Shown here: one piece after another, positions 219 to 45,391 of the stretch
Numbering within the stretch: the stretch's first letter is position 1
Layout: every line of letters begins with the position of its first letter
The notes under the pieces: generated by a model
The model's input: the letters and a program-made list of their open reading frames with translations, nothing else
Told to the model about the DNA's origin: nothing
Databases searched by the model: none
IMG/VR virus record: IMGVR_UViG_3300037462_000746
Coordinates: 1 to 55,523 of that record
DNA from: a virus
Taxonomy: Duplodnaviria; Caudoviricetes
Direction: 5' to 3' (one strand)
Length of the DNA stretch: 55,523 bases
Translations under genes and position numbers: made by a program

Positions 219-253
219 TTGACTTTTAGTTGGTTAGACGGTATTCTTATAAA

Positions 254-312
254 GTAATGAATTATTTTCCTAATCCGTTATTGTTTTAACCCTACTGTGT
301 GTAGGGTTTTTT
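254..312 (+). ncRNA. Candidate sRNA 1
   Basis: TTGACT(219-224)-17-TATTCT(242-247); terminator AACCCTAC/GTAGGGTT + T-run ending 312; no ORF. Confidence 0.6.
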
Positions 313-348
313 ATTGACGAAAATTTAATCTAACTTTACAATGATCAT

Positions 349-420
349 GAGCTTATAGCTCTTTTCATAATAATGTCCAACCCACAGCATTCGTGCGTCT
401 TCCTTAATGTGGGTTTTTTT
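349..420 (+). ncRNA. Candidate sRNA 2
   Basis: TTGACG(314-319)-17-TACAAT(337-342); hairpin GAGCT-TAT-AGCTC at +1; terminator AACCCACA/TGTGGGTT + T-run. Confidence 0.72.
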
Positions 421-455
421 ATTGAGTTTTTTTTGTTCTTGTTTATAATATAGAT

Positions 456-528
456 GAAGATTAAATCTTCTTTTTACAATTTTATCCAAACCTCCATGTT
501 GTCAGTATTTTTTTGGAGGTTTTTTTTT
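456..528 (+). ncRNA. Candidate sRNA 3
   Basis: TTGAGT(422-427)-16-TATAAT(444-449); hairpin GAAGAT-TAA-ATCTTC at +1; terminator AAACCTCCA/TGGAGGTTT + T-run. Confidence 0.68.
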
Positions 529-1624
529 ATTGGTAAAGATTTGTAAATTGCATGCCACCAAGGTCGTTGTCTTGCATGCGAGCTTTTTGAAATGAATCTT
601 CGGCAATTTTGCGTCTCAACTCATATAAATCTGGCTTATACATTCCGGATAATTCCATGGCTAGATGGTCAATGAATGTACCAATGTATCTTCCGTTCAT
701 ATCAACGTTGGATAAAAGGTTTTTAAAGTCAAACGGGAACTTTGCACCTCTTAGATAAAGAAAATTATAATTGGATGAATATGCCATTGATTCATTATCA
801 TCATCTACATTATTTGGCGTGCCCCACATTTGTACATTGATACGATCATTTGCTTTTTGTATTGAACAAATCGATGTTTGAGCAACGTTATTTGGTGTTG
901 TAATTTGCTGGTATGCTGATCGTCCTAAGGTTGAAATAGGGCGATTAATATTAAAGCGTTCATAATATATCTCTCTAAGGGATAGAATTTCTCCCATCGT
1001 TTCTTCAAGCTTATAATATTTGAATTCCTGTGGGGTTTGAATGGTAAACCATCTGGTATTCATAACCGTTGGCGAACCTTCAAAAGGTAATTGTCGACCC
1101 GTATCATATAATTGAACCCAACTTCCATCTAAGTTCGTATTTGATCCAGACACTTTTAAGCGATAATACGCATCTTTTGCACTTAAAACTCCGAAGCAAT
1201 TAATGGATACTGGGTTTTCAAATCCAATGGTGATTGACCCATTCGGAACAGTTTGTTCAAATTTAGTTTCAATATTATTATCAAAGGCAAACGAAGGTTG
1301 ACCATCCGGAAATGAAAAGTATTCTCCTTTACGAAATCTAACTCCAACTCGAACACTTACGTCATAAATGTTGAGTATTTCTGGTGGTAATGGATACCAA
1401 GCGCAGTTATTAATGAGTTTAACAGGTAAAAGAACTTCATTCATTTGCATGAAAAATGGATTAGTCCATTGTTTGATAATTTTATTCATCATTGCAAAGG
1501 CATTGTTTGCATGAAGAGGAGTTAACGTCTCTGGAGAAATCGATAAATATTGAAATGATTTCTCCACAACGTCAATATTACGAATTTTAAGCCCAAAGGG
1601 GTCTAAATCACTCGCAAATACCAT
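527..1624 (-). CDS. Putative head-tail connector/tail tubular protein with inserted discoidin (F5/8C)-like domain
   Basis: Last gene of capsid operon; adaptor-like N/C termini; central FENPVSI...YYRLKVSGSN...WVQLYD...FKYYKL resembles galactose-binding/discoidin domains. Confidence 0.5.
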   Translation of the reverse strand: MVFASDLDPFGLKIRNIDVVEKSFQYLSISPETLTPLHANNAFAMMNKIIKQWTNPFFMQMNEVLLPVKLINNCAWYPLPPEILNIYDVSVRVGVRFRKGEYFSFPDGQPSFAFDNNIETKFEQTVPNGSITIGFENPVSINCFGVLSAKDAYYRLKVSGSNTNLDGSWVQLYDTGRQLPFEGSPTVMNTRWFTIQTPQEFKYYKLEETMGEILSLREIYYERFNINRPISTLGRSAYQQITTPNNVAQTSICSIQKANDRINVQMWGTPNNVDDDNESMAYSSNYNFLYLRGAKFPFDFKNLLSNVDMNGRYIGTFIDHLAMELSGMYKPDLYELRRKIAEDSFQKARMQDNDLGGMQFTNLYQ

Positions 1625-1626
1625 AA

Positions 1627-1995
1627 CTAATCCATTCCAGATTTGCGTTTAGACTCTTTTTTCTTAAATTTAGTGTCTTTCATGCCAAAATTCTCTCTTT
1701 CTGAGCCTGTTTTTGGCTGAAAATAAGGATCTTCGCGATAAACTGGACCTGCTTCTTGCTTGTACATGTAATCTTCGTACATTTCACCTGCTCCAGCGAA
1801 CTCTTTTGGCGATAAAGATTCGTTAGCAAAGTTCAATTCGCGATATTCCCCACGCATTTCGGGTTTATCCCATGATTCTTTGTAAAATTGTTCAGTGTTA
1901 AATGGATTATCCATCATTTTTGAAGCAAACGGATCGGGTCCAAGGTCAATTTCCTTGTAATAGTATCCGCCTGGGCCATTATATTTTTTTAACAT
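1627..1995 (-). CDS. Hypothetical protein
   Basis: 122 aa ORF in operon, RBS AAAGGA. Confidence 0.7.
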   Translation of the reverse strand: MLKKYNGPGGYYYKEIDLGPDPFASKMMDNPFNTEQFYKESWDKPEMRGEYRELNFANESLSPKEFAGAGEMYEDYMYKQEAGPVYREDPYFQPKTGSERENFGMKDTKFKKKESKRKSGMD

Positions 1996-2011
1996 TTTTT
2001 TATCCTTTTTT

Positions 2012-2641
2012 TTATAATAGGCTTTGAGTATTAAATTGCCAATCTAACGAAACCCCAGCTTCTAAATCAATCACCTCCATGAATAATTTGGATGCAGGTT
2101 GATTTACAAGAACATAAGATGGCGTTGTGGTTGTTTCATCCTTGAGATTATCATTAACAATAAACTTTTGAGCGTCTAATTGCGCTTTAGTTAACGTATT
2201 TAAGGTAAGTAACCCATAAATACTGTATTTTACTTCACCTGAGCCGTTTACAATCACTCTATGAGAGGTTGGCGCACCATCATAAGCGATGATTTCTGTC
2301 ATTCCATCACCAGCCCCTATTGATAATGTTTGAGAATCATCTACAGGTCTTACTTGGAACGATTTGTACATATTAGCGCTGGTGACGGTTACGTTACCAT
2401 TTAACGTCAGAATTTCATTTATAGGTTGATTAAATATGGTGTAACCATTGATAAGAAGATCAAAATTTTCTCCTGACCCAGCTGTAAACTTAAGGTATCG
2501 ATAATTGTTTTGAGTAATATCAGAATATAACCAAGAATTCAAAACTAAGCCATCTTTGATGACTGGTTTAGCATTCAATATTGACGTCGTACTATATGTT
2601 GGAAAAAGACTTCTTGCTTGATAGACAATACTTGTTCCCAT
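2012..2641 (-). CDS. Putative virion structural protein
   Basis: 209 aa beta-rich ORF in capsid operon, RBS AGGAG. Confidence 0.55.
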   Translation of the reverse strand: MGTSIVYQARSLFPTYSTTSILNAKPVIKDGLVLNSWLYSDITQNNYRYLKFTAGSGENFDLLINGYTIFNQPINEILTLNGNVTVTSANMYKSFQVRPVDDSQTLSIGAGDGMTEIIAYDGAPTSHRVIVNGSGEVKYSIYGLLTLNTLTKAQLDAQKFIVNDNLKDETTTTPSYVLVNQPASKLFMEVIDLEAGVSLDWQFNTQSLL

Positions 2642-2651
2642 TTTTTATCTC

Positions 2652-3602
2652 CTAATTAACCCAAGTTTGGAAGTTTTCAGAATATGGAGTTAAACCAAGA
2701 ACAGTAGAATCATTATTGTTCAAATAATTTCTTTGTTCTAGGTCAGACGCAAACGTTGGCAAATTTCCAAAACCATAATGTTGCGTAAAGATCGTAACTA
2801 CATTTGTTCCATTAAATGGATCATTTTCATAATAAGATGTATCTCCAAACACAGGACCAAACTCAAAGTAAGGACGGGTAAATCCAGTTGTAATTGTAGG
2901 GATATTATCTTTATCACCAATATACAAAGGAGGAGAATTTGTAATTATAGGCATCCATTCACATGCAGAAGGAGGATTAGAACATGTTATTAAAGGATTT
3001 CCCATGTACAAAATCATTTTTGTAAATGACTTTGCATCATAAATAATATTGTAGGGTATTCCAAACGCGAGACCTAATGTTAGAACATAGTTTAATGTTG
3101 AAGATGATTTGTTTGTAACCTTAATGCTATTTACAAACTTTTGCGGACCAAGTCTTGAAGAGACTGATGAAGAAAATGCTTTTTTATATACCATTTTTCG
3201 GTAATATCTATCTAATCCTGATACGGTAACATCACAATCTTGATCAGTTTCAAAGTCTAATGTGCGTTCAAAATCAAGTTCTACGCATTTCCCAGTAGAT
3301 AATCCTTCTCCATTTTTTAATGTTACAAAACCTGTAAACGATGCAAAAGGAATAGTTCCCAAAGGTAAATAAACTGTAGCATTGCCTGGAATTGTTCCTA
3401 TCAATAAAGAAGAAGTAGAATAATTAGGATTAAATGAATATGGATAGACATCTCCTAAATAAATACCTCCTCCACGTCCTAAATAACCTGACCCTTGAAA
3501 CGCTCCAGCCCTAATCCCATCTTTAACGTTGGTTGGCGTTAACATGAGTTGTGAAATATTATCAGTATTTCCTGCATAAGGAATTGGTTCTAGCCCTGCC
3601 AT
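2652..3602 (-). CDS. Putative virion structural protein, paralog 3 of a triplicated family
   Basis: Shares D[FYC].R, RP.F.F, [YA]G.G and terminal W motifs with the next two genes. Confidence 0.6.
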   Translation of the reverse strand: MAGLEPIPYAGNTDNISQLMLTPTNVKDGIRAGAFQGSGYLGRGGGIYLGDVYPYSFNPNYSTSSLLIGTIPGNATVYLPLGTIPFASFTGFVTLKNGEGLSTGKCVELDFERTLDFETDQDCDVTVSGLDRYYRKMVYKKAFSSSVSSRLGPQKFVNSIKVTNKSSSTLNYVLTLGLAFGIPYNIIYDAKSFTKMILYMGNPLITCSNPPSACEWMPIITNSPPLYIGDKDNIPTITTGFTRPYFEFGPVFGDTSYYENDPFNGTNVVTIFTQHYGFGNLPTFASDLEQRNYLNNNDSTVLGLTPYSENFQTWVN

Positions 3603-4513
3603 GGTGTGAATCCTTCCGTAAAGTTGGGTTGACCGTAAACGTATTTGATTTCAGATGATACTTTACCGATTTCTGGAAGGTAATTTTCTTCATCAAGAGA
3701 TGCATTATTGAATTGTGTTGCATTACCTAATCCATATACATTCTGCAATAATGTAAATGTATATTTATTAATATTGTCATCAAAAGCTTCCCCATTTTTT
3801 AAGAATTCAAACCACGGTCTAGGGGTATTTTGAGTCAACGTTATTGGAGTTGTTTGTGCAAAAGAATAATTTCCATCCCATTTAAACGCATAGGGTTCAG
3901 CATCATTTAGCGTATTAATCCATAACCCATCATGTACATTTCCTGACAATTCGTGGTCAGCGTGAGCCGAAACTTCGAGTAATTGAGAAAGAATTCCATT
4001 ATCTGTTATGGGCAATTCAAAAATATTTGTTAACGTAAATTTAAGTGTAACGGTAACAGGTGCATCTGACGTTAAAAAAATTGAACTTAATCCCAACGTT
4101 GCTGCCAATGGATTTGTGGACGTTGAGACGTCATCTAAAACTGTTTGGTTGAATCCTATTTGTCCATAAATATCATAATATGAAATAAAAATATTAACAT
4201 TAGTCCCAGGCGCAGATGTTGCAGTAATTCGTGCTGCAATTACCCTGGAATAATCAAATACTAAAACTTTTGTTTTACCATTTAACGATTCAATTTTACC
4301 CGCAACAAATTGAGATAAGGGCACAATCGTTTTAGATGTTGGGGTTAAAGTAAATTCAGCTGTATATAAATCTACCCTTGGGTTTGGTTTTGTAATTGTA
4401 TATGGCATAGGAAGTCCGACAGGAACTCCTGGGGAAGCTTCATTAGGAATAAAAATTTGTCCTGCTGTAAAACCAGATTTAAAATTCGAGCCATTTAAAA
4501 AATAAGAGTCCAT
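3590..4513 (-). CDS. Putative virion structural protein, paralog 2
   Basis: Likely start MDSYF at 4513 (TAATG coupling to upstream stop); GVPVGLP, RPWFEF, GFTPWQ motifs. Confidence 0.6.
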   Translation of the reverse strand: MDSYFLNGSNFKSGFTAGQIFIPNEASPGVPVGLPMPYTITKPNPRVDLYTAEFTLTPTSKTIVPLSQFVAGKIESLNGKTKVLVFDYSRVIAARITATSAPGTNVNIFISYYDIYGQIGFNQTVLDDVSTSTNPLAATLGLSSIFLTSDAPVTVTLKFTLTNIFELPITDNGILSQLLEVSAHADHELSGNVHDGLWINTLNDAEPYAFKWDGNYSFAQTTPITLTQNTPRPWFEFLKNGEAFDDNINKYTFTLLQNVYGLGNATQFNNASLDEENYLPEIGKVSSEIKYVYGQPNFTEGFTPWQG

Positions 4514-5406
4514 TATGATTGCCACCCTTTCCATCCTTTTGAATATGAAGCCCCACCAATCACATATTCTTTACTGTTTAAGAACGGTGTGGGTTGGAAA
4601 TCACCATCTTCTGCTATTGCAATTGTTTGATCTGTTAGAGGTATGTTATAACCAAAACCTGCTACATTTTGACCTATAATTAATATACTTTCCCCATCAA
4701 ACGAATTGGTTGTAATTCCTTCTACGACTTCAAAAGCAAATAAAGGTCTTACACTTCCTTCACTTAAGGTTTGATCTGAGGCTTTTACTGAATTAACTAG
4801 GCTAAACAGAGGTTTAAGTTTATAGGGAGTGCTTCCTTCATTATATATTCCATACAAAGGAAATCCTTTAAAACTTACAAACGAAGGAGGTGCTTCATTG
4901 AAGTTTGAAAATGGAAGTTCTATAATATCCATTGTAAAAACTCGAACATTTGTTAACCCGGCACTTCCTGAAACTTTTATAGAATTAATAGCAGAAACAC
5001 CTCTTGGTGCTATAAAAGATTGAATTCCTTGTATTTCTTGAGAAGTTCCTCCAAACGTCATGGGTTCGCCATAAAAATCTCTTACCGACGCAAATACATT
5101 AAATTCTTGATTTGCAGTGATTAAAATTATGCGACAGCAATCAAGTGGAACTTCTAGATCAATAACAGTAAAAGGCGTGGCTAATTTATTTCTATTAAAA
5201 TTAATATATGCCCCATTTGCTGATGCAAAATTAGGATTTGTATCGGGTGAAGATAAAATGGCTCGTCCTGATATTGGTTTCCATGCATATAATAAGGGCA
5301 CACCCGTTGGCACACCCGTTGTAGCATTACCAATTTGTCCAAAGACACCAGAGGTAATGCTGTCCGTAAAGGTTGTGCCAGTCTGATAACTATTGATAAC
5401 GGACAT
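4513..5406 (-). CDS. Putative virion structural protein, paralog 1
   Basis: Directly after MCP; GVPTGVP, RPLFAF, GWKGWQ motifs. Confidence 0.6.
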   Translation of the reverse strand: MSVINSYQTGTTFTDSITSGVFGQIGNATTGVPTGVPLLYAWKPISGRAILSSPDTNPNFASANGAYINFNRNKLATPFTVIDLEVPLDCCRIILITANQEFNVFASVRDFYGEPMTFGGTSQEIQGIQSFIAPRGVSAINSIKVSGSAGLTNVRVFTMDIIELPFSNFNEAPPSFVSFKGFPLYGIYNEGSTPYKLKPLFSLVNSVKASDQTLSEGSVRPLFAFEVVEGITTNSFDGESILIIGQNVAGFGYNIPLTDQTIAIAEDGDFQPTPFLNSKEYVIGGASYSKGWKGWQS

Positions 5407-5421
5407 GATGAGTCCTTTCTT

Positions 5422-6351
5422 TTATAAGTAGTTATCCGCGCTCAATGGCTGTTGCAGTCCCAAGGATGCTCTAAAGTCGTCATAATCCAAAAGGAAGCGC
5501 ATAAAGCAACTGGTTAGGAGTGTAAACGTAGAAATGTTTGGCATCTGTTGAATGTCAAAGGGCCAGCGAATATACATATACATACCTGGCAAATTAGTTC
5601 TTATCATAACCTGGTTTTTGGCAATATACGGGTTGACATGAATTCCGTCGCTGACCCAGCGCATTCCACTTGCAGGGTTTACCGCAAAACTACTGGTATT
5701 TGGCGAGAATTGAGACTCTAACATTACATACATTACAGCGGTCATTTCTGGCGGCACAGTAACAACTTTTGCCTTGTTATTGGCTACAAAGAATCCATTG
5801 TTTGCCTTAAAGCGCCACATTTTTACCAACAATTGATAGAATGTTGAAATATTTAACATAGCATTACCATTCAAAGTGTTTGAAACTGGACCTTTTGCTG
5901 TATTGTGTTGTGTAGAATATAACGTCACGCCGTCTAAACCTGGGTTGCCTCCTGGGCGGAAACCATCTGCATAGAATTTTGCTACTTCAAGGTTAACGGC
6001 TTCGATCATGGATTGAAGGAATGCAACACCTAATTGAGGTGCTATGGCGCGATATAAGTTATCTTGTAAATATTGACGGGTAATATTCACTTGAAGAGAA
6101 TAAATTGGGAAGTTGAATTGTTTCTGACCGTAGTTAGAAAATGTCGCATAAGGCGCTTGTCCACCGTCAAGTACTTTGACCGCCTCAGACATCATTCGCT
6201 TACCAAATCCGTACTCTGTATGACGTTGTGTGTACCGAATGTCAAATTCTTTCTCATATAATTTTGGCATTGTAGGGTACAACGCTTTAACCAAAGAAAA
6301 TCCAGGCATCGTATCTTGGATATTTTGATCTATCGTGACTAAATTGTTCAT
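5422..6351 (-). CDS. Major capsid protein (Mu gpT-like HK97 fold)
   Basis: 309 aa; GLDGVTLYSTQH motif, VTVPPE, VNPY, D-F-R C-terminus typical of this MCP family; follows scaffold and decoration genes. Confidence 0.8.
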   Translation of the reverse strand: MNNLVTIDQNIQDTMPGFSLVKALYPTMPKLYEKEFDIRYTQRHTEYGFGKRMMSEAVKVLDGGQAPYATFSNYGQKQFNFPIYSLQVNITRQYLQDNLYRAIAPQLGVAFLQSMIEAVNLEVAKFYADGFRPGGNPGLDGVTLYSTQHNTAKGPVSNTLNGNAMLNISTFYQLLVKMWRFKANNGFFVANNKAKVVTVPPEMTAVMYVMLESQFSPNTSSFAVNPASGMRWVSDGIHVNPYIAKNQVMIRTNLPGMYMYIRWPFDIQQMPNISTFTLLTSCFMRFLLDYDDFRASLGLQQPLSADNYL

Positions 6352-6396
6352 TGTGTTATTCCTTTATTATGTATGAACGTTTTAATTTTTTTTTAA

Positions 6397-7224
6397 TTAA
6401 CTAGTTAGTACCTTTTGTTCGTAAATTGATACTGCGTTTGAATTAATAAAACTTTGGTTGAACATAACGCCAACTATGTTGTTCTCATTCGTATCATCTG
6501 GGTCCGTATCACTCCACCACCCGCTATTGTCATAATTATTAGGTGTTAGAATAAGCAAAGGATTTGAAGGTGGTCGTGTATAGTTTTCTTGCAATAAAAT
6601 ATCGTTTATTGATTGTGGTGAGGTTAAGCAAATTCGTGATGTTCCGGGCAATAAACCTTGTGCAGAAGCAGTTGACGTGTTAGGAGTTCCTTTAACAAAA
6701 ACAAAATCTACTGTTCCTACTGTTTGAGTATATTGATCAGCTGGATCACCCCCAAATTGGGCGCATCCTAAGAAATAATCTTGAGATATCCCTGGTAGAC
6801 CCGGTTCACCCCGATATTGGATTTTATATCGCGCTTGTGCATCTGTATTAACAATCACCTGTACTGTAGTACCTTCTTGTAAAACTGTGGTTTTATCATA
6901 AGAGGGCCATGTATCGTTAGGCGTTAAAGAATTATTTGCAGGTTTATATTTAAATCCTACTATTACACCTACAATAGGTGGGTAATATATATTTTGTACA
7001 GTATTAGGAATAGTAATGTTACTTGAAATAAATGCAGGGTACACATAACCTAAAGCAGAAGATACATTTGTACCCGCAACGGCTGGAAGATAAGAAATTA
7101 CAGGATCACCTGACCAACCACTAAATGCTGGATTCCAAGGGAATGTTAGCAACGTGGGGTTAGCTTGTGAAGCTGCACTCGTTGATAAATCCCCTTGAAG
7201 TCCAAAAGGAGAAAAAGTTGCCAT
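6397..7224 (-). CDS. Putative capsid decoration/minor capsid protein
   Basis: N-terminal PFGL motif and IVGVIVG...V.VNTDAQARYKIQ pattern seen in genes preceding this MCP type. Confidence 0.55.
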   Translation of the reverse strand: MATFSPFGLQGDLSTSAASQANPTLLTFPWNPAFSGWSGDPVISYLPAVAGTNVSSALGYVYPAFISSNITIPNTVQNIYYPPIVGVIVGFKYKPANNSLTPNDTWPSYDKTTVLQEGTTVQVIVNTDAQARYKIQYRGEPGLPGISQDYFLGCAQFGGDPADQYTQTVGTVDFVFVKGTPNTSTASAQGLLPGTSRICLTSPQSINDILLQENYTRPPSNPLLILTPNNYDNSGWWSDTDPDDTNENNIVGVMFNQSFINSNAVSIYEQKVLTS

Positions 7225-7468
7225 TTTGAAAAGTCCTTTATTATTATTATTTTATCTTTTAATTTGACAACCCTAAACCTTAAGATTGACAAAAATAAGC
7301 TTAAATTTGGTGAAATTAACTGACTTTTTGCGCTCAAAATCATATTAATCTCGAGCTAGATCCGAAAACCGTTAGGTTCGCTTGAATAGCATTATAATTG
7401 TAAAATAGTTCTTGCTTAGTTTCAAGAAATTAATAAGAATATTATAAAATAAATATAAAGGCAAGCAA

Positions 7469-7570
7469 ATGAAATTTTTAAAAATCATCTTCTTGAGCAT
7501 CAAAAGCAAACTTCGCTACCTAAAAAACAAGCGGAAATCAAAATACAATTGTTTTCATCATTTTTTCTAA
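7469..7570 (+). CDS. Possible 33-aa basic peptide (MKFLKIIFLSIKSKLRYLKNKRKSKYNCFHHFF)
   Basis: ATG after AAAGG; below ORF-track cutoff; opposite strand to flanking genes. Confidence 0.3.
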   Translation: MKFLKIIFLSIKSKLRYLKNKRKSKYNCFHHFF

Positions 7571-7613
7571 AATGTGCTTGAAAGCTTTCAGTGTTAATGA
7601 TTAAATAATCATA

Positions 7614-7692
7614 GATTCATTTAGAATCCTTGATTAAAACAACCATCCCCTCGGCAGTGTTGAACTTTTCTTTATGCGAGGGGTTTTTTTTT
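7614..7692 (+). ncRNA. Candidate sRNA 4
   Basis: TTGAAA(7578-7583) with weak -10; hairpin GATTC-ATTTA-GAATC; terminator CCCCTCG/CGAGGGG + T9 on the strand opposite the flanking operon. Confidence 0.55.
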
Positions 7693-8353
7693 AATAACCA
7701 AGCTGATTAATTTGATTATTCAAATATATAGATGGATCTGACCCATCGTTTACTCCATCTTCTTTGAGATATTTCATACCCAGTATGCGTTTATTATACT
7801 TATCTTGGTTTTTACGACCATTGGGTCCGATTTCTTCATATTGTTCACGGTTTTCAGCAGCTAACATTTCGTTATAACGTTCATGATCTTCGCGATCTCG
7901 TTCCATGATGATATTTTCACCAATTATAATAGCCTGGTCATGCAAAACTTCGTCTGATTGTTCTTTTTTTGTGAGACCTGCATGGTTGTCCAATTGGTTA
8001 TACACGCTATCAGACACTAAATTTGTTTTTCGATGGCGTGCTGCGGGTACAATTCGATAACCATTCTCGCGATGAAGCGCGATCATCGCTTTAGTGCTAT
8101 AAGCTTTATGATCCATGTTATCGATGATTTTCCAAGGAATTAAAGCATATCGCTTGTTTGCAGGAGCTTCATTCAAAATCCTATCAAGAAGATTAGTAGA
8201 CATATTGAGCTGAATGTCGGATTCCCAATATGGATTTTCTTCCGACAATAATCTTTCTCCTCTATGAGCGTTACTACCGGAAAGTTCTTTGTAACGATCG
8301 ACTAACGAAAATCGACTTTTAGATTCGTCAACGCTTGTGTGTGGGTACATCAT
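7691..8353 (-). CDS. Hypothetical head-module protein
   Basis: Likely start MMYPHT at 8353 after AAGGA; between scaffold and capsid genes. Confidence 0.65.
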   Translation of the reverse strand: MMYPHTSVDESKSRFSLVDRYKELSGSNAHRGERLLSEENPYWESDIQLNMSTNLLDRILNEAPANKRYALIPWKIIDNMDHKAYSTKAMIALHRENGYRIVPAARHRKTNLVSDSVYNQLDNHAGLTKKEQSDEVLHDQAIIIGENIIMERDREDHERYNEMLAAENREQYEEIGPNGRKNQDKYNKRILGMKYLKEDGVNDGSDPSIYLNNQINQLGY

Positions 8354-8369
8354 AATTTTTTTATCCTTA

Positions 8370-9515
8370 TTAATATGATTGTTTGTATGTATTAAAAATT
8401 TCATCGTAGCTTTCTGCGACTTCAGAAATATTATTAGTTAGCCCTGAATCCTTGATCGTTTGAAGCCAATTTTGCCGAGCAATTTTGTCATCTTGATTCA
8501 TTGGCGCTTTATAACGCAATCTGTTTGGCTCAGAGCGTGTTACTGGAGCAGAGAAGTCTTGTGAAAATCGTTGCATGTTCATTCCATCTCCATAGGGTTG
8601 CTGTTGTTGATTTGCAGGAAGTTGTGTATTGAACTCATTTTTCAAATGAACTTTTAAATTAGAAGATAGGTCTTGAAAAAAGTCATCCGTATAAATATCA
8701 GTACCTCGACCTTCAATTTTATATTTATCTGCAAGCGTTGCCTCTAAGTTTTGAGCTATTTGTGCAAGCCTGGGCGAATAATTTGGGTTTTCAAAACGAT
8801 TGTCTAAAAACTTATGAGAATTCAAAAATCGATCAACGGCTTTGTTTTTTCCTTCATCTTCCTCATATTCATATTGAGGCTTGTAATTATAGTCTTTACG
8901 TCTGAATTCTTCATAAGCGCTATTTACAAGGGTAGAATGGGATTGATATTGATTTTTGAGTCGGGCTAATTCATCTTTGATTTTATCTTCCTGGATAATC
9001 GCTTGTTTTGATTTGTAATCCGCTTCAATGGAAGCTTGATAGTTATCTTCATTCCTATACTTTTCCTTTAAGTATAATTCTTCTGCGGCAATTCGTGCTT
9101 GATCTGCTTTTTCCTTTTCAAGTTTTTGCATTTCAAGCAACATGCTTTGATTTTCGAGATAAGCATTTCGTAACGTAAGTTCATCTATTTGTTTTGCTTG
9201 CATAGCCTTTTCTTGTTCAGCTTGCATTATTTTTTGTTTTAAACGCTCTTTTTGATTTAATTTGTTTGCCTTTGGCTTAGATTCTTTTTCGTCGTCTCCG
9301 GAATCATTTCTCGACTCATTCTTATATTCAGGAAAATCTTCTTTACGTGTAAGTTTGCTAAAATCGGGTTCTTCTTTTGCTAAAGATGGAATCCATTGTG
9401 CAACTTGCTGCACGTCCGGGTTAGCGTACTCTCCCTCTCTTACATTTTTTAAAAGCTTTGACTGTTCATTGGGATCATTGAAAGCCTTTTCTATATCGCT
9501 GAAAATGTCGCTCAT
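8370..9515 (-). CDS. Putative capsid scaffolding protein
   Basis: Charged coiled-coil 381 aa protein upstream of capsid genes. Confidence 0.55.
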   Translation of the reverse strand: MSDIFSDIEKAFNDPNEQSKLLKNVREGEYANPDVQQVAQWIPSLAKEEPDFSKLTRKEDFPEYKNESRNDSGDDEKESKPKANKLNQKERLKQKIMQAEQEKAMQAKQIDELTLRNAYLENQSMLLEMQKLEKEKADQARIAAEELYLKEKYRNEDNYQASIEADYKSKQAIIQEDKIKDELARLKNQYQSHSTLVNSAYEEFRRKDYNYKPQYEYEEDEGKNKAVDRFLNSHKFLDNRFENPNYSPRLAQIAQNLEATLADKYKIEGRGTDIYTDDFFQDLSSNLKVHLKNEFNTQLPANQQQQPYGDGMNMQRFSQDFSAPVTRSEPNRLRYKAPMNQDDKIARQNWLQTIKDSGLTNNISEVAESYDEIFNTYKQSY

Positions 9516-9524
9516 TTTTTACTC

Positions 9525-13554: not shown

Positions 13555-13861
13555 GGGTAGAGGAAGACCACCTAATATTGAAGAAGATTATGCACTTCTT
13601 ACAGAAGTGCATTCGATAGATGATATTCCAAGCGTTGGTATCAAAATATTGAATACACTTGGAAAGGGCAATATTAAAATAGCATCGGCTAAAAACATGT
13701 TTTATCTTTTAAAAAGCTTAGATCAGCTTGCGTATTCTTCAATGGATCGTTTGTCGAAACAAAAATTTAAACTCATATGCCAAGTGGCAGATCAAATTCA
13801 GAACAAAGGAATTTCAGCAATAGAACATGATATGGATGAAGACGATCTCATTGACTTTTAA
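13538..13861 (+). CDS. Hypothetical protein, possible terminase small subunit
   Basis: N-terminal GRGRPP, helical, acidic tail; weak assignment. Confidence 0.35.
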   Translation: MLKNSKGRGRPPNIEEDYALLTEVHSIDDIPSVGIKILNTLGKGNIKIASAKNMFYLLKSLDQLAYSSMDRLSKQKFKLICQVADQIQNKGISAIEHDMDEDDLIDF

Positions 13862-13885
13862 GTTGTTTTCACATACTCTCTAAAT

Positions 13886-13954
13886 GGACAAATAACGTTC
13901 ATCTTATGTTTAAAGACATTTCAACACCCTTCGTCAACAAGAGGGTGTTTTTTT
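13886..13954 (+). ncRNA. Candidate sRNA 5
   Basis: TTGACT(13851-13856)-17-TACTCT(13874-13879); 5' hairpin GGAC/GTTC; terminator AACACCCT/AGGGTGTT + T-run. Confidence 0.6.
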
Positions 13955-13992
13955 CAATTGACTTATAAAGTCATCATGATTATGATATCCCT

Positions 13993-14081
13993 GTGAAAAA
14001 GAATGCAACTTTTTCTCAATCATTTTATTTTCTTATATTGTATAATGACTTACACCCTTTTGCAAGGAAGGGTGTTTTTTT
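13993..14081 (+). ncRNA. Candidate sRNA 6
   Basis: TTGACT(13958-13963)-17-TATGAT(13981-13986); hairpin GAAAAAG/CTTTTTC; terminator ACACCCTT/AAGGGTGT + T-run. Confidence 0.72.
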
Positions 14082-15833: not shown

Positions 15834-15915
15834 GAAAAAAAAAGATTAATTTCAAGTTTTTTTTAAGGATGTGATTAAGACACACAACCCCATCTTGGCG
15901 CAGATGGGGTTTTTT
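15834..15915 (+). ncRNA. Possible sRNA 15 (weak promoter)
   Basis: Plus-strand terminator AACCCCATC/GATGGGGTT + T-run between two minus-strand genes; promoter match poor. Confidence 0.35.
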
Positions 15916-18140: not shown

Positions 18141-19514
18141 ATGAGCGAATATGACGATGAATGTTTAAACGTTCTTCCCTTTGACAATTTTATGAAAGAT
18201 GCGACAAAAGAGTTTCTTTCTAATTTAATGAAGGAAACTTTTTCAGAAAAAGAATGCCCGGTTGAAGAGAGAGTCTTGATTGACAATGAAGTATTTTTAG
18301 ACAATGAGAAATGGATAAGTCTTCTTAAAAATATAGAGGTGAAAAATCCAATTCTTTATCCTAATTTGGGTAAACCTTATACCCACTATAAGCCCGAGCC
18401 AAAATTCGAGCATTATTATATGGTTTTGGAAAATTATTATGATGGATCACTAAAGCCTTTTGATCCGTGTATTTATTATGATTTGAAGCCAAATCAGAAA
18501 CTTATAACCTCTATCTATCTGAAAAGCGCACTCGAAGACTTAAGATGGAAGGATAAAACTGCTTGGATTGAAGTTCACTTGCACTTAATAAGACTCTTTT
18601 TAGACCCAAAACTCAATGAAAAAGAATCGGATGGAAATGAACATCAAGAAAGTGAGCATTGTTTTAAATACCAAATCATGACTTATTTTAATCAGTTTGG
18701 GAAACATTTCTTTTATGAAATCTTTAGCAAAACTGAAATGAAAAGATTTTTTCAACGGTTTGAAGATTTGGATACCCTCATAGAAGATGCTAAAAACTGC
18801 CATTTAATACCTGAATCTAGTTCCAAAAATTTTGATATCAAAGACCGCAAAGATGAGGCATTTTTAGAATGGGTTTCCCTTTATGTAACGCGGGACTATT
18901 TATCTGAGGAATTAAAGCTTTTCGAAAGTAGCTTACGATCACTTTCAAGCATGATGTTGTTGATGAACTATTTCACGGATGGCATTTTGGATGAGCTTAA
19001 ATTAGACAGTTCAGAAAAAGAATTTTTCACTACCATTTTTATATCTATGGATAAAGATACTAAAGGAAAAGATCAATCCTTTGTAAAAATGATCAAAAAT
19101 GCGTGTTTGCATCATTTGTATGATTTGCGCAGCACAATACTTTCGTCATTACGCGAAAGCCCACAGTTAATTGACCACATTCATTATGAAACCTCTCTCA
19201 TACGTAAAAAGTTTAAAAACTCTAACTATCCACAAATTAGCACGGAATATCTTCTTTTCAATTGGAATAACGTTGGTTTTGTGAGCTTAAATGACCCTTT
19301 AATTTATGATGATATTGCCTACCAACCTTTAATAACTAGGATTTTACAACAAAAGAAGTTTTATGAAGAAATAAGGACTAAAGTGTTTCGAAGTGCTAAA
19401 GAATTCTACTATATAAAGGCAAGAATTAATTTTAATACTCAATTAAATCGTAATGAAACTTTAGATCAAACAACGTTTCTTGAACCCCCATATTTAGGGG
19501 GCTATAAATTATAA
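18141..19514 (+). CDS. Hypothetical protein
   Basis: 457 aa ORF. Confidence 0.75.
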   Translation: MSEYDDECLNVLPFDNFMKDATKEFLSNLMKETFSEKECPVEERVLIDNEVFLDNEKWISLLKNIEVKNPILYPNLGKPYTHYKPEPKFEHYYMVLENYYDGSLKPFDPCIYYDLKPNQKLITSIYLKSALEDLRWKDKTAWIEVHLHLIRLFLDPKLNEKESDGNEHQESEHCFKYQIMTYFNQFGKHFFYEIFSKTEMKRFFQRFEDLDTLIEDAKNCHLIPESSSKNFDIKDRKDEAFLEWVSLYVTRDYLSEELKLFESSLRSLSSMMLLMNYFTDGILDELKLDSSEKEFFTTIFISMDKDTKGKDQSFVKMIKNACLHHLYDLRSTILSSLRESPQLIDHIHYETSLIRKKFKNSNYPQISTEYLLFNWNNVGFVSLNDPLIYDDIAYQPLITRILQQKKFYEEIRTKVFRSAKEFYYIKARINFNTQLNRNETLDQTTFLEPPYLGGYKL

Positions 19515-19880
19515 ATTTTCTTCGTTCTGCGGGGGAGTGTTAACAGAAATATCCCCTATTACTTGGATGCTTTCTATGCCGCTCTTGTAAATAACTTTGG
19601 GCTTTTTTACTGGGTCTAAGATGATAATATATCGATCAAAATGACTCACCTTTCCTGAAAACTCTTTTCCGCTTTGCATTTGAATTAAAATTTCAATTCC
19701 TTGATCTTTCATGCTTTCTAAAAACATGTCTTGTACTTTAGAGGTCTGTGAAATATTTACTGGTTTTTTTTTCTTGGCAGGCGCATTGAAAGATTTTTTG
19801 AATGCAGGTTTTGAATAGCCCATTCCAGGTCTAGATGTTTGCGGACGTTGAGGGTATTCGTTGTTTGGTTGGTATGCCAT
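19509..19880 (-). CDS. hfq: Hfq-family RNA chaperone (Sm/Lsm fold) with basic N-terminal extension
   Basis: VQDMFL...G...GKV..FDRY.I.L...VIYKSGI aligns with Hfq LQDPFL...GIKLQGQIESFDQFVILL...MVYKHAI; start ATG 19880 after AGAGG. Confidence 0.9.
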   Translation of the reverse strand: MAYQPNNEYPQRPQTSRPGMGYSKPAFKKSFNAPAKKKKPVNISQTSKVQDMFLESMKDQGIEILIQMQSGKEFSGKVSHFDRYIIILDPVKKPKVIYKSGIESIQVIGDISVNTPPQNEENL

Positions 19881-19941
19881 ATTTTCCTCTTTATGTTGAC
19901 TTTGTTTAAGTTTAATGAATATATATCTATAGTCAAGAAAA

Positions 19942-20643: not shown

Positions 20644-20646
20644 TTA

Positions 20647-30148: not shown

Positions 30149-30250
30149 AAAAAGCGGAATCTTTTAGTTGCTTGCTAAAGAACATGGGATTCCGCTTTTA
30201 AATGCGTTGTTAAAAAGAAATCTAAACAACTTTTTAACAAAGGAGATCGC
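30149..30250 (-). ncRNA. Candidate sRNA 7 (5' anti-SD GAUCUCCUU)
   Basis: TTGCAT(30285-30280)-17-TATTAT(30262-30257); 11-bp hairpin; terminator GCGGAATC/GATTCCGC + U-run (bidirectional). Confidence 0.65.
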
Positions 30251-30286
30251 ATAAGGATAATATGTTAAAAAATTATTGGATGCAAT

Positions 30287-30389
30287 AAAAAAACCGCCAA
30301 CCTCAAGATATTAGATCACATATATAAAAAAAGGGGCGGTTGTGTCAAATATTATAAAAGAACCACTAAACATATAAATGTGAAATGGC
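30287..30389 (-). ncRNA. Candidate sRNA 8
   Basis: TTGAAT-16-(TGG)TAAGAT(30401-30396); hairpin at +1; terminator AACCGCC/GGCGGTT + U-run. Confidence 0.65.
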
Positions 30390-30425
30390 ACAATAATCTT
30401 ACCATACCATGGATTATATTCAACT

Positions 30426-30516
30426 AAAAAAAACCGCCTCTTAAAAAATCAAATAACAAAGGGAGACGGTTATATAAAATTAATATAAGTAAGTCATAGT
30501 AGTTTGAATCAACTAC
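30426..30516 (-). ncRNA. Candidate sRNA 9
   Basis: TTTACA(30551-30546)-17-TAAGAT(30528-30523); hairpin GTAGTT/AACTAC at +1; terminator AACCGTCTC/GAGGCGGTT + U-run. Confidence 0.68.
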
Positions 30517-30565
30517 ATATTTATCTTACCGTATAAGTAATACCTTGTAAAGGTAGTTTTCTCGG

Positions 30566-30606: not shown

Positions 30607-30629
30607 TTTAATTGTAGTTAATATATAAC

Positions 30630-34134: not shown

Positions 34135-34227
34135 AAAAAAACCTGCCGAAATACAAAACATGAAAGGCAGGTTGCGTTAAGTTAACGATATTTGATTAAG
34201 AATCTTTAATGATAATTCTCTAGATTC
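34135..34227 (-). ncRNA. Candidate sRNA 10
   Basis: TTGTTA(34262-34257)-17-TAAACT(34239-34234); hairpin GAATCT/AGATTC at +1; terminator AACCTGCC/GGCAGGTT + U-run. Confidence 0.68.
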
Positions 34228-34263
34228 ATCATTAGTTTACGTGTTTGCAGAACGTTTAACAAT

Positions 34264-34356
34264 AAAAAAACCCGCCAAAATAAGAAAAAAAAGGCGGGTG
34301 ACACTAAAAACAATCTTTACTTTGAAAGGTTTTTTAACAAAAATGAATAAAAAACT
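34264..34356 (-). ncRNA. Candidate sRNA 11
   Basis: TAGACC(34391-34386)-17-TAGTAT(34368-34363); 5' hairpin; terminator ACCCGCC/GGCGGGT + U-run (also ends the early operon). Confidence 0.55.
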
Positions 34357-34360
34357 ATAG

Positions 34361-34996
34361 TTATACTATCACATTATGTTTCTTAGGTCTACCTTTTTGG
34401 TTTTCCTTTCCAAAGAAATGACACCAATTTACCCATCCCTTATCTTTGTAAATTTTATAAGGTTGATAGGGTAAATTTCTGGGTCTTCTTCTACGGTAGT
34501 CTATGATAGATTTAATTCCTTTCTCAATAAGGTATTTTCTTGCTTTTTCGAACGGCAAAAACTGTTTACGATATATCCCATATCCATCTTTTTCACAAGG
34601 AATGCCGTTTTCATCGATCTTACCAAAAAAATGCATCCAACTCATCCATCCTTTGTTTCTATATTTTTCTCTTGGATTTGACGGCAAGTTATAGGGTTTT
34701 CGTGCGTTTTTAAATTGATTAATCGATTTTATATTATTCTCTCTAATCCACTTTTCCGCCTCTTTATAGGACATAAATTCTTTTTTATTAAACGCATCTT
34801 TATCTTTGCCCAAAAAATCAAACCAATTTGTCCAACCCTTTTTTTTATAAGCGTAAGCAGGGTCGTTAGGCATATTCTTAGGTTTGGTCATTTTCTTCCA
34901 TTCAACAGCGGTTTGCACTTCAAGGCTTTGTGCGAACATTTTGCAACGCTCAAAACTTATATATTTAGATTTCCTTTTTTTTCGTATTTTACTCAT
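34361..34996 (-). CDS. Protein with three integrase-repeat-unit (INT_rpt)-like domains, putative DNA binding
   Basis: 3x F/Y..A.....L.IKS......P.NLP..P...Y...GW..W..F.GK. Confidence 0.7.
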   Translation of the reverse strand: MSKIRKKRKSKYISFERCKMFAQSLEVQTAVEWKKMTKPKNMPNDPAYAYKKKGWTNWFDFLGKDKDAFNKKEFMSYKEAEKWIRENNIKSINQFKNARKPYNLPSNPREKYRNKGWMSWMHFFGKIDENGIPCEKDGYGIYRKQFLPFEKARKYLIEKGIKSIIDYRRRRPRNLPYQPYKIYKDKGWVNWCHFFGKENQKGRPKKHNVIV

Positions 34997-44091: not shown

Positions 44092-44113
44092 AATGGATCT
44101 CCTATCCGTTGGT

Positions 44114-44515
44114 TTAAACAAATTTTACAGGGGTTGAAAAGTATTCGATGGCTATCTTTTTTCTGGCAGCTTCACTTATAGGAGGAACTTCAGAAACAAT
44201 ACTAATCGTATCAGCTGTAAGACAAGCATTGCGCCCATCTTCACCTTCAGCCCACAGTTTATGCTTATCATTGATTCTATTAAGTATATGTTTTAAGGTT
44301 GAATAAGTTACGTTACCGTTTTTGCTAGCTTCTCTCCAATTTTTGGAAACAACCCAAACTGAATGATCATGGCTAACAACTTCTAATTGATCTTTTCCAC
44401 GATAACCATGTTGATAATAAATAACGTATACATCTTTGCCGTTGTGATCTTCCGTTATTACATAATCATATATACATAGTTCTAAAGTGCTTTGGTTTGA
44501 AAGTTTTTCTAACAT
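44114..44515 (-). CDS. Hypothetical protein, early family A paralog (first gene of operon)
   Basis: Ends EYFSTPVKFV. Confidence 0.75.
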   Translation of the reverse strand: MLEKLSNQSTLELCIYDYVITEDHNGKDVYVIYYQHGYRGKDQLEVVSHDHSVWVVSKNWREASKNGNVTYSTLKHILNRINDKHKLWAEGEDGRNACLTADTISIVSEVPPISEAARKKIAIEYFSTPVKFV

Positions 44516-44544
44516 GATATAGACTCCAATTTGTTTACATCCTT

Positions 44545-44573
44545 AACTTACCATCAAAAATGTATACATACAA
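44545..44573 (-). promoter_or_regulatory. Sigma70-like early promoter overlapped by palindrome ATGTATACAT
   Basis: TTGTAT-17-(TGG)TAAGTT upstream of the 10-kb leftward operon. Confidence 0.55.
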
Positions 44574-44904
44574 ATAAAAATTTCTTTATATATACATTTT
44601 ATTAGAAAATAGTATATTTGTTGCAATTATACAACATTCTAATTTTTCAAAACATTACTAATATAATCCAGTATTTCCAAGCCATTCTCTTACCACAATT
44701 CCAAGCCAAAACCCAATCTTAATCCAAAACCGATAGTTTTTATCTAGGTCAAACAAGTGCTAAAATACTCTATTTTAATATATTACTTGTATTTAATGTA
44801 TGTACACGAGTATTTGCTATAGTTTAATGTTATACATTTCATTTGATATACCGTTTAAACTAATAATGATTGATTATTTGCGCGTTAGCGCCTAAAATTT
44901 CCAT

Positions 44905-45014
44905 GTACTGCGAAAGTACAACTGTAATAAATGATAGGCAGACTGTCTTTATTCTTTATTTTTTGTTAGCATATTTCACTCCAACCCGCTTATGTCATTT
45001 CGCGGGTTTTTTTT
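44905..45014 (+). ncRNA. Candidate sRNA 12
   Basis: TTGATT(44870-44875)-17-TAAAAT(44893-44898); hairpin GTACT/AGTAC at +1; terminator AACCCGC/GCGGGTT + T-run. Confidence 0.7.
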
Positions 45015-45050
45015 ATTGACTTACCACTTCTTCAAGTATATTTTCATTAT

Positions 45051-45263
45051 GACTCATACAACTTAATTAGTTTAATGCATGAGGGAATCTCTTAATTGTA
45101 AGGTTTATTTTGTTTCTTAATATTTTTTCGCGACAAAATAAACCTAGAGAGCCTGTGTGGATGCGCCTGTGTGGCTAATAATATATTTTAATGCTTGATA
45201 TAAATGTTTTTGTATCAAAGACTAAAGCTGCTACGTTCAAATAATAGCGTAGCAGTTTTTTCT
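45051..45263 (+). ncRNA. Candidate long structured RNA 13 (about 210 nt)
   Basis: TTGACT(45016-45021)-17-TATTTT; several hairpins; terminator CTGCTACG/CGTAGCAG + T-run. Confidence 0.62.
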
Positions 45264-45297
45264 TTACATAGGGGTTTATTTTTATTACAATAGGCTT

Positions 45298-45391
45298 ACA
45301 AACCTATCATAGTTTGTAAAAATTCTTTTTAGATACTCCAACCCGCACCTATTATTTTAATTAGACTTAGTTCTAGATTGGCGGGTTTTTT
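45298..45391 (+). ncRNA. Candidate sRNA 14
   Basis: TTTACA(45263-45268)-17-TACAAT(45286-45291); hairpin ACAAAC/GTTTGT at +1; terminator AACCCGC/GCGGGTT + T-run; overlaps 3' end of 45357 gene in antisense. Confidence 0.68.

What the first reader, a model, noticed from the sequence alone, without database searches (positions are those of the whole stretch)
219..45391. Phage-encoded Hfq plus about 14 tandemly arrayed, independently transcribed small RNAs: candidate phage sRNA-silencing system
Seen: six intergenic clusters (219-528 x3, 7578-7692 x1, 13851-14081 x2, 30149-30551 x3, 34135-34391 x2, 44870-45391 x3) contain units of one shared design. Each has a TTGACA-like -35, a mostly 17-nt spacer, a TAnnnT -10 (weak in unit 4), and a purine 7 nt downstream where a short hairpin usually begins. 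An AU-rich linker and a GC stem (often AACC../..GGTT) with a large loop and U-tail follow. The next -35 starts within about 4 nt of the previous U-tail, and there are no substantial ORFs. The same genome encodes an Hfq homolog. Established: stem plus U-tail 3' ends are the Hfq proximal-face binding module of trans-acting sRNAs. Inference: the phage carries its own RNA chaperone and an sRNA arsenal to silence host (and its own) mRNAs. I know of no described phage with this array-plus-Hfq arrangement, but I could not search.
Basis: partly seen in the sequence, partly recalled or inferred. Interest (0 to 1): 0.93.

Follow-up and report, generated by a model that had tools for sequence, protein, structure and literature searches.

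The report
Phage small-RNA gene arrays plus own Hfq
An uncultured 55-kb phage carries about fourteen tiny non-coding promoter-to-terminator genes stacked head to tail in six gaps between its operons, together with its own unusual copy of the RNA chaperone Hfq, which suggests (but does not yet show) that the virus brings a self-contained small-RNA toolkit into its host.

Summary
Observation confirmed. The six clusters hold 14 strong intrinsic terminators. Nine have a sigma-70-like promoter at 9-10 of 12 consensus positions and four at 8 of 12; E1 has none. Spacers are 17 nt in 11 of 13. In all 8 internal junctions the next -35 starts 1-3 nt after the U-run. In shuffles of the six regions, 14 terminators become 0.08, 11 units 0.03 and 8 tandem pairs 0. 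No unit has a convincing ORF or an Rfam match.

The only complete relative, G001 (TerL 70% identical), has the same design, with arrays at two syntenic sites, and the same Hfq clade. The Hfq is real: Pfam 47.6 bits and an Sm fold. It has its own TTGACT promoter, an invariant H57S change, and lacks the rim and distal residues.

Interpretation partly supported. Unit sequences are not conserved between relatives. Pairing to phage start sites and anti-SD motifs are not above shuffles. No RNA run was listed, and the Hfq link rests on one lineage.

Prophage sRNA genes are known, and this scan noted tandem prophage sRNA arrays on other DNA. A phage-borne Hfq beside such arrays was not found in print.

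The parts
219..312 (+). Unit A1: TTGACT-17-TATTCT, +1 about 254, terminator 288-308, U6. It also terminates the upstream + operon.
314..420 (+). Unit A2: TTGACG-17-TACAAT, 5' hairpin from +1 (349), terminator 379-415 (loop 21), U7
422..528 (+). Unit A3: TTGAGT-16-TATAAT, 5' hairpin from +1 (456), terminator 488-522 (loop 17), U9
7578..7692 (+). Unit B1: TTGAAA-17-TTAAAT (weak -10), hairpin at 7614, terminator 7647-7683 (loop 23), U9. It lies just after a conserved 33-codon ORF (7470-7571) and may be that ORF's 3' UTR.
13851..13954 (+). Unit C1: TTGACT-17-TACTCT (8 of 12), terminator 13924-13948, U7. The -35 overlaps the end of gene 13538-13861.
13958..14081 (+). Unit C2: TTGACT-17-TATGAT, 5' hairpin, terminator 14052-14075, U7
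30426..30551 (-). Unit D1: TTTACA-17-TAAGAT, 5' hairpin from +1 (30516), terminator 30471-30432 (loop 22), U8
30287..30423 (-). Unit D2: TTGAAT-16-TAAGAT (8 of 12); a second candidate promoter is TTTATA-16-TATAAT at 30378. Terminator 30341-30292 (loop 36), U7.
30149..30285 (-). Unit D3: TTGCAT-17-TATTAT (8 of 12), 11-bp internal helix, terminator 30195-30154 (loop 26), U5. The stem sequence GCGGAAT..ATTCCGC is shared with G001.
34264..34360 (-). E1: terminator 34299-34270 (U7) of the operon ending at 34361. No convincing promoter of its own.
34135..34262 (-). Unit E2: TTGTTA-17-TAAACT (8 of 12), terminator 34173-34140 (loop 18), U7. It has the same strand as the downstream genes, so it could also be a leader.
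44870..45014 (+). Unit F1: TTGATT-17-TAAAAT, 5' hairpin from +1 (44905), terminator 44983-45008, U8
45016..45261 (+). Unit F2: TTGACT-17-TATTTT, 211-nt multi-hairpin RNA, terminator 45225-45258, U6
45263..45392 (+). Unit F3: TTTACA-17-TACAAT, 5' hairpin from +1 (45298), terminator 45340-45387 (loop 34), U7
19509..19936 (-). Phage Hfq gene (ATG 19880, 123 aa; disordered Lys-rich N-terminus and Sm core) with its own TTGACT-16-TAAACT promoter at 19936-19909
15886..15915 (+). Extra lone terminator of the same AACC..GGTT type, on the + strand between two - strand genes. G001 has one at the same position.

Best explanation
The six clusters are arrays of autonomous, non-coding mini-genes. Each unit is a host-type (sigma-70-like) promoter that starts 1-3 nt after the previous U-tail. 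It would give a 59-110-nt RNA (one of 211 nt). The RNA has a short hairpin at or near its 5' end, a U-rich unstructured body, and a C-rich/G-rich clamp stem that closes an unusually large U-rich loop, followed by 5-9 U.

The first unit of most clusters also terminates the preceding operon. The RNAs are most likely abundant small RNAs made by host RNA polymerase.

Their 3' module (U-rich stretch, terminator hairpin, long U-tail) is the kind that Hfq proximal faces bind. The phage expresses, from the same promoter type, a divergent Hfq that keeps most proximal-face residues but not the distal or rim ones. So the likeliest mechanism is that the phage Hfq loads and stabilises these RNAs. The RNAs then act as fast-evolving base-pairing regulators, or as decoys that occupy host RNA-binding and decay machinery.

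Shown: the anatomy, its non-randomness, the absence of ORFs, conservation of the design in a relative, and the Hfq family and fold. Inferred: transcription, the RNA ends, Hfq binding, and any target.

My odds: the units are real sRNA genes, about 0.55. They work through the phage Hfq, about 0.3.
For: - Fourteen terminators lie in the six clusters, 13 with an upstream promoter match of at least 8 of 12 and a 16-17-nt spacer.
- Shuffles give about 0.
- A perfect 5' hairpin starts within 3 nt of the predicted +1 in 7 of 14 units, P = 0.0013.
- No convincing ORF lies in a unit.
- RNA bodies are U>A on the transcribed strand in 23 of 28 units of both genomes, P = 4e-7.
- Among the 38 strong hairpins of both genomes, terminator 5' arms are 47% C, 3' arms 50% G, loops 45% T, with a median loop of about 18 nt.
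- Five of six clusters point at the 3' end of an opposing gene, so the units are not leaders of downstream genes.
- G001 (collinear; TerL 70%, GroEL 63%, Hfq 46-49% identical) has about 14 units of the same design. They include arrays syntenic with clusters A and C and a four-unit array, each with a promoter-like junction and a 5' hairpin.
- Hfq: Pfam 47.6 bits against a cut-off of 27; PDB Hfq matches; a model with an alpha helix followed by five beta strands and TM 0.8-0.87 to Hfq structures; its own TTGACT promoter.
- The Hfq clade has 13 environmental members. The motifs QDMFL, SHFD.YII and YKS.IES are invariant across the 8 sequences aligned.
Against: - No expression evidence exists.
- Unit sequences at syntenic sites do not align between the window and G001. 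No 9-mers are shared outside terminator arms and T-runs. A nearby non-coding block, 7283-7382, is almost identical in both genomes, so the unit bodies are not under comparable sequence constraint.
- In a soil-metagenome relative, roughly 85-88% identical in genes, the cluster regions fall below 80% identity or are replaced, while the A2/A3 junction at 368-433 is kept.
- Duplex energies to 65 phage start regions are no better than shuffles: mean z is -0.33 and only E1 stands out.
- Anti-SD tetramers are not enriched: 9 against 7.9 in the window and 12 against 10.7 in G001.
- The phage Hfq lacks rim arginines and the distal Y25/I30, and has H57S (E. coli numbering recalled). This argues against classical matchmaking.
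- The one unrelated phage record with a similar Hfq (31% identity) has no arrays.
- Many G001 promoters are far from consensus. The automatic criteria caught only 2 tail-to-(-35) junctions there.
Confidence: 0.5

Rival explanations
1. The repeated element is really a composite terminator-promoter cassette (U-tail directly followed by a -35), like the PeSLs of T4-type phages. Such cassettes would insulate operons at module boundaries and serve as recombination or indel points. The short segments between cassettes would be empty or decayed slots, and any RNAs would be by-products.
For: - The -35 follows the U-run by 1-3 nt in 8 of 8 internal junctions. T-run + ATTG also follows A3, where no unit follows.
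- Clusters sit at operon ends and convergent junctions.
- Unit number and position differ between the window and G001. G001 has arrays at 25860-26092 and 24700-24455 where the window has none.
- Unit bodies are not conserved.
- In the soil relative the A2/A3 junction is kept while flanking bodies are not.
- PeSLs are described as small composite terminator/promoter sequences that mediate indels (PMC4122927, abstract read).
Against: - There is no ORF between cassettes in any of 28 units, whereas PeSLs flank genes.
- The cassettes are not near-identical repeats. Stems differ and loops are unrelated, so they are poor substrates for homologous recombination.
- The recurrent hairpin at +1, the U>A strand bias of the bodies and the narrow size range point to selection on the transcript.
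Confidence: 0.25
2. The units are real small RNAs but work without the phage Hfq, for example with host factors or as decoys for RNases, defence sensors or RNA polymerase. The phage Hfq then has another job, such as sequestering host U-tailed sRNAs or handling phage mRNAs.
For: - The phage Hfq lacks distal and rim residues and has H57S.
- The body sequences evolve fast while the architecture is kept. This fits a function that needs shape and abundance rather than a seed.
- Another Hfq-like phage record has no arrays.
Against: - Arrays and this Hfq clade occur together in both complete genomes.
- Hfq uses the same promoter type as the units.
- The units carry the U-rich stretch, hairpin and long U-tail that Hfq proximal faces bind (the binding rule is recalled).
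Confidence: 0.17
3. The units encode very small peptides, or they are chance matches in AT-rich intergenic DNA.
For: The DNA is AT-rich (about 70% AT in the gaps). The generic promoter scan finds no excess of promoter-like sites genome-wide.
Against: Region-only shuffles give 0.08 terminators against 14, and 0 tandem pairs against 8. There are no SD-led ORFs. The same design is seen in G001.
Confidence: 0.03

Closest known systems
Prophage-encoded Hfq-dependent sRNAs of E. coli (Pas family, EcOnc, DicF, AgvB/AsxR, lambda PreS, VP882 VpdS)
   Same: They are stand-alone phage-borne sRNA genes ending in a stem-loop plus poly-U, which is read as terminator and Hfq site (bioRxiv 10.64898/2026.05.13.724894, passages; review PMC12197685, passages). 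Earlier notes of this scan report four-copy tandem PasB-type arrays antisense to tail genes (not checked here).
   Different: Those phages rely on the host Hfq. Their sRNAs have conserved sequences and seeds and are validated. Here the phage has its own Hfq, six arrays are spread over the genome, there is no sequence family, no Rfam match, the host is unknown and there are no expression data.
PeSL composite terminator/promoter cassettes of T4-type phages
   Same: A terminator hairpin is directly fused to an early-type promoter, repeated in variable regions (PMC4122927, abstract).
   Different: PeSLs are conserved repeats that flank ORFs. Here the stems and loops differ, and the space between cassettes is 60-110 nt of non-coding, U-rich sequence that begins with a hairpin.
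LhrC1-5 multicopy sRNAs of Listeria monocytogenes
   Same: They are several small sRNA genes of about 100 nt, poor in G, in which the terminator loop itself takes part in target binding (PMC4132741, passages). Large U/C-rich terminator loops are the most unusual feature of the units here.
   Different: LhrC copies are paralogues that share CUCCC..UUUU motifs. The phage units share no seed, and anti-SD motifs are not enriched.
Bacterial Hfq (PF17209)
   Same: Sm fold. Q8, D9, F11, G29, G34, F39, D40, Y55 and K56 are kept, and F42 is Y as in Gram-positive Hfqs (numbering recalled).
   Different: H57S is invariant in the clade. Rim R16/R17/R19 are K/D/G. Distal Y25 and I30 are Q and K. There is a disordered, Lys-rich N-terminal extension of about 45 residues. 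There is no PHROG match.

Membership tests
Hfq (Pfam PF17209, Sm-like) | Profile match above the curated cut-off | tested here: met
   47.6 bits against 27; 49.1 bits in the six-frame search
Hfq (Pfam PF17209, Sm-like) | Sm fold: N-terminal helix followed by five strands | tested here: met
   Model H48-60 and five strands, core pLDDT 83-89. Top PDB folds are all Hfq, TM 0.76-0.89 normalised by target.
Hfq (Pfam PF17209, Sm-like) | Proximal-face uridine pocket (Q8, F/Y42, K56, H57) | tested here: inconclusive
   Q, Y and K are kept. H57 is S in 8 of 8 aligned clade members.
Hfq (Pfam PF17209, Sm-like) | Hexameric ring and RNA binding | not tested
   No complex job was run. RNA binding needs an experiment.
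Hfq-class trans-acting sRNA genes | Own promoter and intrinsic terminator, no ORF | tested here: met
   By sequence only: 13 of 14 units with a promoter match of at least 8 of 12, 14 of 14 with a strong terminator, and no convincing ORF
Hfq-class trans-acting sRNA genes | 3' module: U-rich stretch, hairpin, long U-tail | tested here: met
   U-runs 5-9 (median 7), bodies 41.5% U, loops 45% U
Hfq-class trans-acting sRNA genes | Conserved seed or demonstrable target complementarity | tested here: not met
   No shared 9-mers outside terminators. Syntenic units do not align. Phage start sites are not better than shuffles. Host targets cannot be tested because the host is unknown.
Hfq-class trans-acting sRNA genes | Expressed as a discrete RNA that binds Hfq | not testable with these tools
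   No RNA holder was listed.
PeSL cassettes | Terminator hairpin fused to an early promoter | tested here: met
   8 of 8 internal junctions have a 1-3-nt gap.
PeSL cassettes | Near-identical repeat copies that flank ORFs | tested here: not met
   Stems and loops differ. No ORFs lie between cassettes.
Any Rfam RNA family | Covariance-model match | tested here: not met
   0 matches at gathering score. Two unrelated weak hits at E below 1, neither in a unit. G001 gave only 2 tRNAs.

The most novel reading that the evidence does not exclude
This phage lineage carries a self-contained riboregulation kit. It has a proximal-face-only Hfq variant with a Lys-rich N-terminal arm, specialised for the U-tailed RNAs of the phage's own fast-evolving sRNA gene arrays. 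Chaperone and guides would thus travel together and be exchanged cassette by cassette. That would let the virus silence or rewire host and phage mRNAs, or out-compete host sRNAs, independently of the host's own chaperone.
Probability: 0.28. Interest if true: 0.85.

Novelty: new variant of a known kind. Interest (0 to 1): 0.62.

Why it matters
Phage sRNAs known so far borrow the host Hfq. A virus that brings both the chaperone and a set of about 14 RNA genes would be a new level of post-transcriptional host takeover.

It would also give a natural, compact system for studying which Hfq surfaces are needed for which job. This Hfq keeps the U-tail face but lacks the rim and distal face.

The cassette-like junctions may explain how phages gain and swap small RNA genes. 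If the rival holds, the arrays are still a clear non-T4 example of composite terminator-promoter cassettes.

Tried and rejected
- **RNA evidence.** No RNA holder was listed for window 1-10000. The four runs laid were DNA contigs only, so nothing can be said on expression.
- **More relatives.** TerL and Hfq profiles found only G001 in IMG/VR, one 2-kb metagenome contig, and nothing in GTDB genomes.
- **Pattern scan of IMG/VR.** A scan for tandem GG-T7..ATTG..GG-T7 gave 17 stretches. Two are G001. The other 15 show no such arrays, and L013 is a row of small-loop terminators 250-500 nt apart. The pattern is narrow, so this does not show absence elsewhere.
- **Distant comparisons.** A distant TerL relative (L008, 21 kb held) has 1 terminator and no tandem pair. 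The Hfq-like phage record MT835489.1 has 12 terminators and 1 tandem pair.
- **Self-targeting.** Duplex energies to 65 start regions are not better than 12 mononucleotide shuffles per RNA. The method is crude, with no accessibility term.
- **Anti-SD enrichment.** Not found.
- **Known RNA families.** None.
- **Host.** Not identified. There are no close cultured phages.
- **Literature.** Phrase searches for phage-, prophage- or virus-encoded Hfq found no such report. This covers only the held library. My Hfq query is divergent, so the tblastn of 50,697 phage records (1 weak hit) and the PHROG scan (no hit) do not exclude canonical Hfq genes in other phages.
- **Supplements of papers.** Not opened.

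Full report
**What the window is.** The window is a whole IMG/VR virus record (55,523 bp, 34.8% GC). Its first and last 152 bases repeat with one mismatch, so it is circular or terminally redundant. It encodes a large terminase, a portal protein, a tape-measure-like protein, a tail-fibre chaperone domain and a divergent GroEL. Most genes have no family. It has no tRNA, no near relative among 50,697 phage records, and a terminase under 30% identical to any cultured phage. The host is unknown.

The six clusters are at the stated coordinates.
- A terminator finder (stem of at least 6 bp with at least 4 G-C pairs, loop 3-45, at least 6 T in 7) gives 17 sites in the genome. Fourteen of them are the units. 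One more (15886-15911) is of the same type, and two lie inside genes.
- Promoter matches: nine units reach 9-10 of 12 against TTGACA/TATAAT, counting B1, whose -10 lacks the key A. Four units reach 8 of 12. E1 has no convincing promoter and is simply the terminator of the upstream operon (and reading).
- Spacers are 17 nt in 11 of 13 units.
- The base 7 nt after the -10 is a purine in 13 of 14 units.
- A perfect hairpin of at least 5 bp starts within 3 nt of that base in 7 of 14 units, against 13.8% of positions genome-wide (P = 0.0013).
- U-runs are 5-9 nt. The next -35 begins 1-3 nt after the U-run in 8 of 8 internal junctions.
- Dinucleotide shuffles of the whole genome, and of the six regions alone, give essentially none of this.
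- No unit holds a convincing SD-led ORF. None matches an Rfam family.

**Context.** In five of six clusters the units point towards the 3' end of a gene on the other strand, so they cannot be leaders of downstream genes. Only E2 precedes same-strand genes. The first unit of clusters A, C, D and E also serves as the terminator of the preceding operon. Outside the units, few intergenic gaps carry a good TTGAC-type promoter. One that does is the gap before the Hfq gene (TTGACT-16-TAAACT).

In the window and its relative together, the terminator 5' arms are C-rich (47% C), the 3' arms G-rich (50% G), and the loops U-rich (45%). The loops are very large for intrinsic terminators, with a median of about 18 nt and a maximum of 36. 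The RNA bodies upstream of the terminator have U>A on the transcribed strand in 23 of 28 units (P = 4e-7). These strand-specific features argue for selection on the transcript, not only on the DNA.

**Relatives.**
- One complete relative exists in IMG/VR: G001, 58,026 bp, collinear but reversed. Identities are TerL 70%, GroEL 63% and Hfq 46-49%.
- G001 has 22 strong terminators (3.0 expected) and 7 same-strand tandem pairs (0 expected).
- By eye it has about 14 units of the same design. There are two at the site syntenic with cluster A, two at the cluster C site, a four-unit array at its left end, and two further pairs where the window has none.
- Seven of its internal junctions read T-run + A/CA + TTG/TTT, but the hexamers are further from consensus. 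My automatic criteria caught only 2.
- The unit sequences themselves are not conserved. Syntenic clusters do not align, and the only shared 9-mers are terminator arms and T-runs.
- This is not just saturation. A non-coding block at 7283-7382 is nearly identical between the two genomes.
- A third relative appears in soil-metagenome contigs, roughly 85-88% identical in genes. There the cluster regions drop out of the 80% alignment or are replaced by similar lengths of other sequence: 239 letters for 261 at cluster C, and 172 for 163 at cluster B. The A2-terminator/A3-promoter junction (368-433) is kept.
- So the architecture is maintained while the bodies turn over quickly and units are gained and lost.

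**The Hfq.**
- The gene at 19509-19880(-) scores 47.6 bits against Pfam Hfq (cut-off 27) and matches solved Hfqs by sequence.
- Its model has a disordered, Lys-rich N-terminus of about 45 residues and then a helix plus five strands. All top PDB folds are Hfq.
- Against Hfq chains (E. coli numbering recalled), Q8, D9, F11, G29, G34, F39, D40, Y55 and K56 are kept and F42 is Y. H57 is S. The rim R16/R17/R19 are K/D/G. The distal Y25 and I30 are Q and K.
- The YKS.IES motif and the Lys cluster are invariant in 8 aligned clade members. The clade has 13 members, all environmental, none with an organism name.
- It looks like an Hfq that can hold U-rich 3' ends but lacks the usual mRNA-binding and annealing surfaces, unless the basic N-terminal arm replaces them.

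**Tests of the silencing idea.**
- Best duplexes between each unit RNA and 65 phage start regions are not stronger than for shuffled RNAs (mean z -0.33; only E1, an A/U-run artefact candidate, stands out).
- Anti-SD tetramers are at the level expected from composition.
- Host targets cannot be tested.
- No RNA run holds the phage (recorded only as tried).
- The one other phage record with a similar Hfq (31% identity) has no arrays.
- A pattern scan of IMG/VR for such tandem junctions found arrays only in G001.

**Reading.**
- Best explanation: autonomous small non-coding RNA genes, transcribed by host polymerase and built with the 3' module that Hfq binds. They probably work with the phage's own Hfq, either as rapidly diversifying base-pairing RNAs or as decoys.
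- Main rival: the conserved thing is the composite terminator-promoter cassette, as in the PeSLs of T4-type phages (PMC4122927, abstract), and the short inserts are empty slots. Against it stand the lack of any ORF between cassettes, the lack of repeat identity, the +1 hairpins and the strand-specific composition.
- The Hfq link is inference from co-occurrence in one lineage and a shared promoter type.

**Comparison with what is known.**
- Phage- and prophage-borne Hfq-dependent sRNAs are established. Examples are the Pas family, EcOnc, DicF, AgvB/AsxR, PreS and VpdS (PMC12197685 and bioRxiv 10.64898/2026.05.13.724894, passages). Those use the host Hfq.
- Earlier notes of this scan describe tandem PasB-type arrays in Stx prophages and arrays in P2-like prophages (not checked here).
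- LhrC of Listeria shows that a terminator loop can be a target-binding site (PMC4132741, passages).
- New here: the units belong to no known family, six arrays are spread over one virulent-looking genome, and the genome carries its own divergent Hfq clade.
- Four phrase searches found no report of a phage-encoded Hfq. That covers only the held library.

**Verdict.** The finding is a new variant of a known kind, with interest 0.62. The boldest reading still open, a portable chaperone-plus-guides kit, has a probability of about 0.28.

Noticed in passing
window 7283-7382: A non-coding block is nearly identical between the window and G001, although their proteins are only 50-75% identical. It contains two TTGAC/CTGAC motifs and may be a key promoter/operator or a structured element.
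   Followed up: partly
window 7470-7571 (+): A small, very basic ORF (33 codons) is conserved in G001 (38 codons). It lies just upstream of unit B1, so B1 may be its 3' UTR.
   Followed up: partly
L007 1638-1709 (-) and L005 4-80 (-): G001 carries two tRNA genes. One is an odd tRNA with a 4-base anticodon call, at the site that corresponds to window cluster B. The other is a tRNA-Met next to its four-unit array. The window has no tRNA.
   Followed up: partly
window 30560-30608 (-): A 13-bp perfect inverted repeat (GACTATACTCCGG...CCGGAGTATAGTC) lies right after the GroEL stop, without a U-tail, just upstream of unit D1's promoter.
   Followed up: no
window 30630-32453 (-): A phage-encoded, very divergent GroEL-like chaperonin (Pfam Cpn60_TCP1, E = 1e-42), 63% identical in G001.
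   Followed up: no
window 45151-45174 (+), inside unit F2: A direct repeat GCCTGTGTGG x2, separated by 4 nt, lies in the 211-nt unit, which folds into several long helices (MFE -58.9 kcal/mol).
   Followed up: no
window 1-152 and 55372-55523: The ends of the record repeat (152 bp, one mismatch at position 72), so the ORF at 54960-55523 continues into 3-218.
   Followed up: yes
L005/L006 (G001 20400-21150, + strand): Where the window has cluster D, G001 has three small paralogous membrane-protein-like ORFs and a unit in the opposite orientation. The content of this junction is therefore highly variable.
   Followed up: no
window 44516-44870: A 350-nt AT-rich gap lies upstream of the early paralogue operon. 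It has no promoter at 9 of 12 or better on the minus strand, so the promoter type of that operon is unclear.
   Followed up: no
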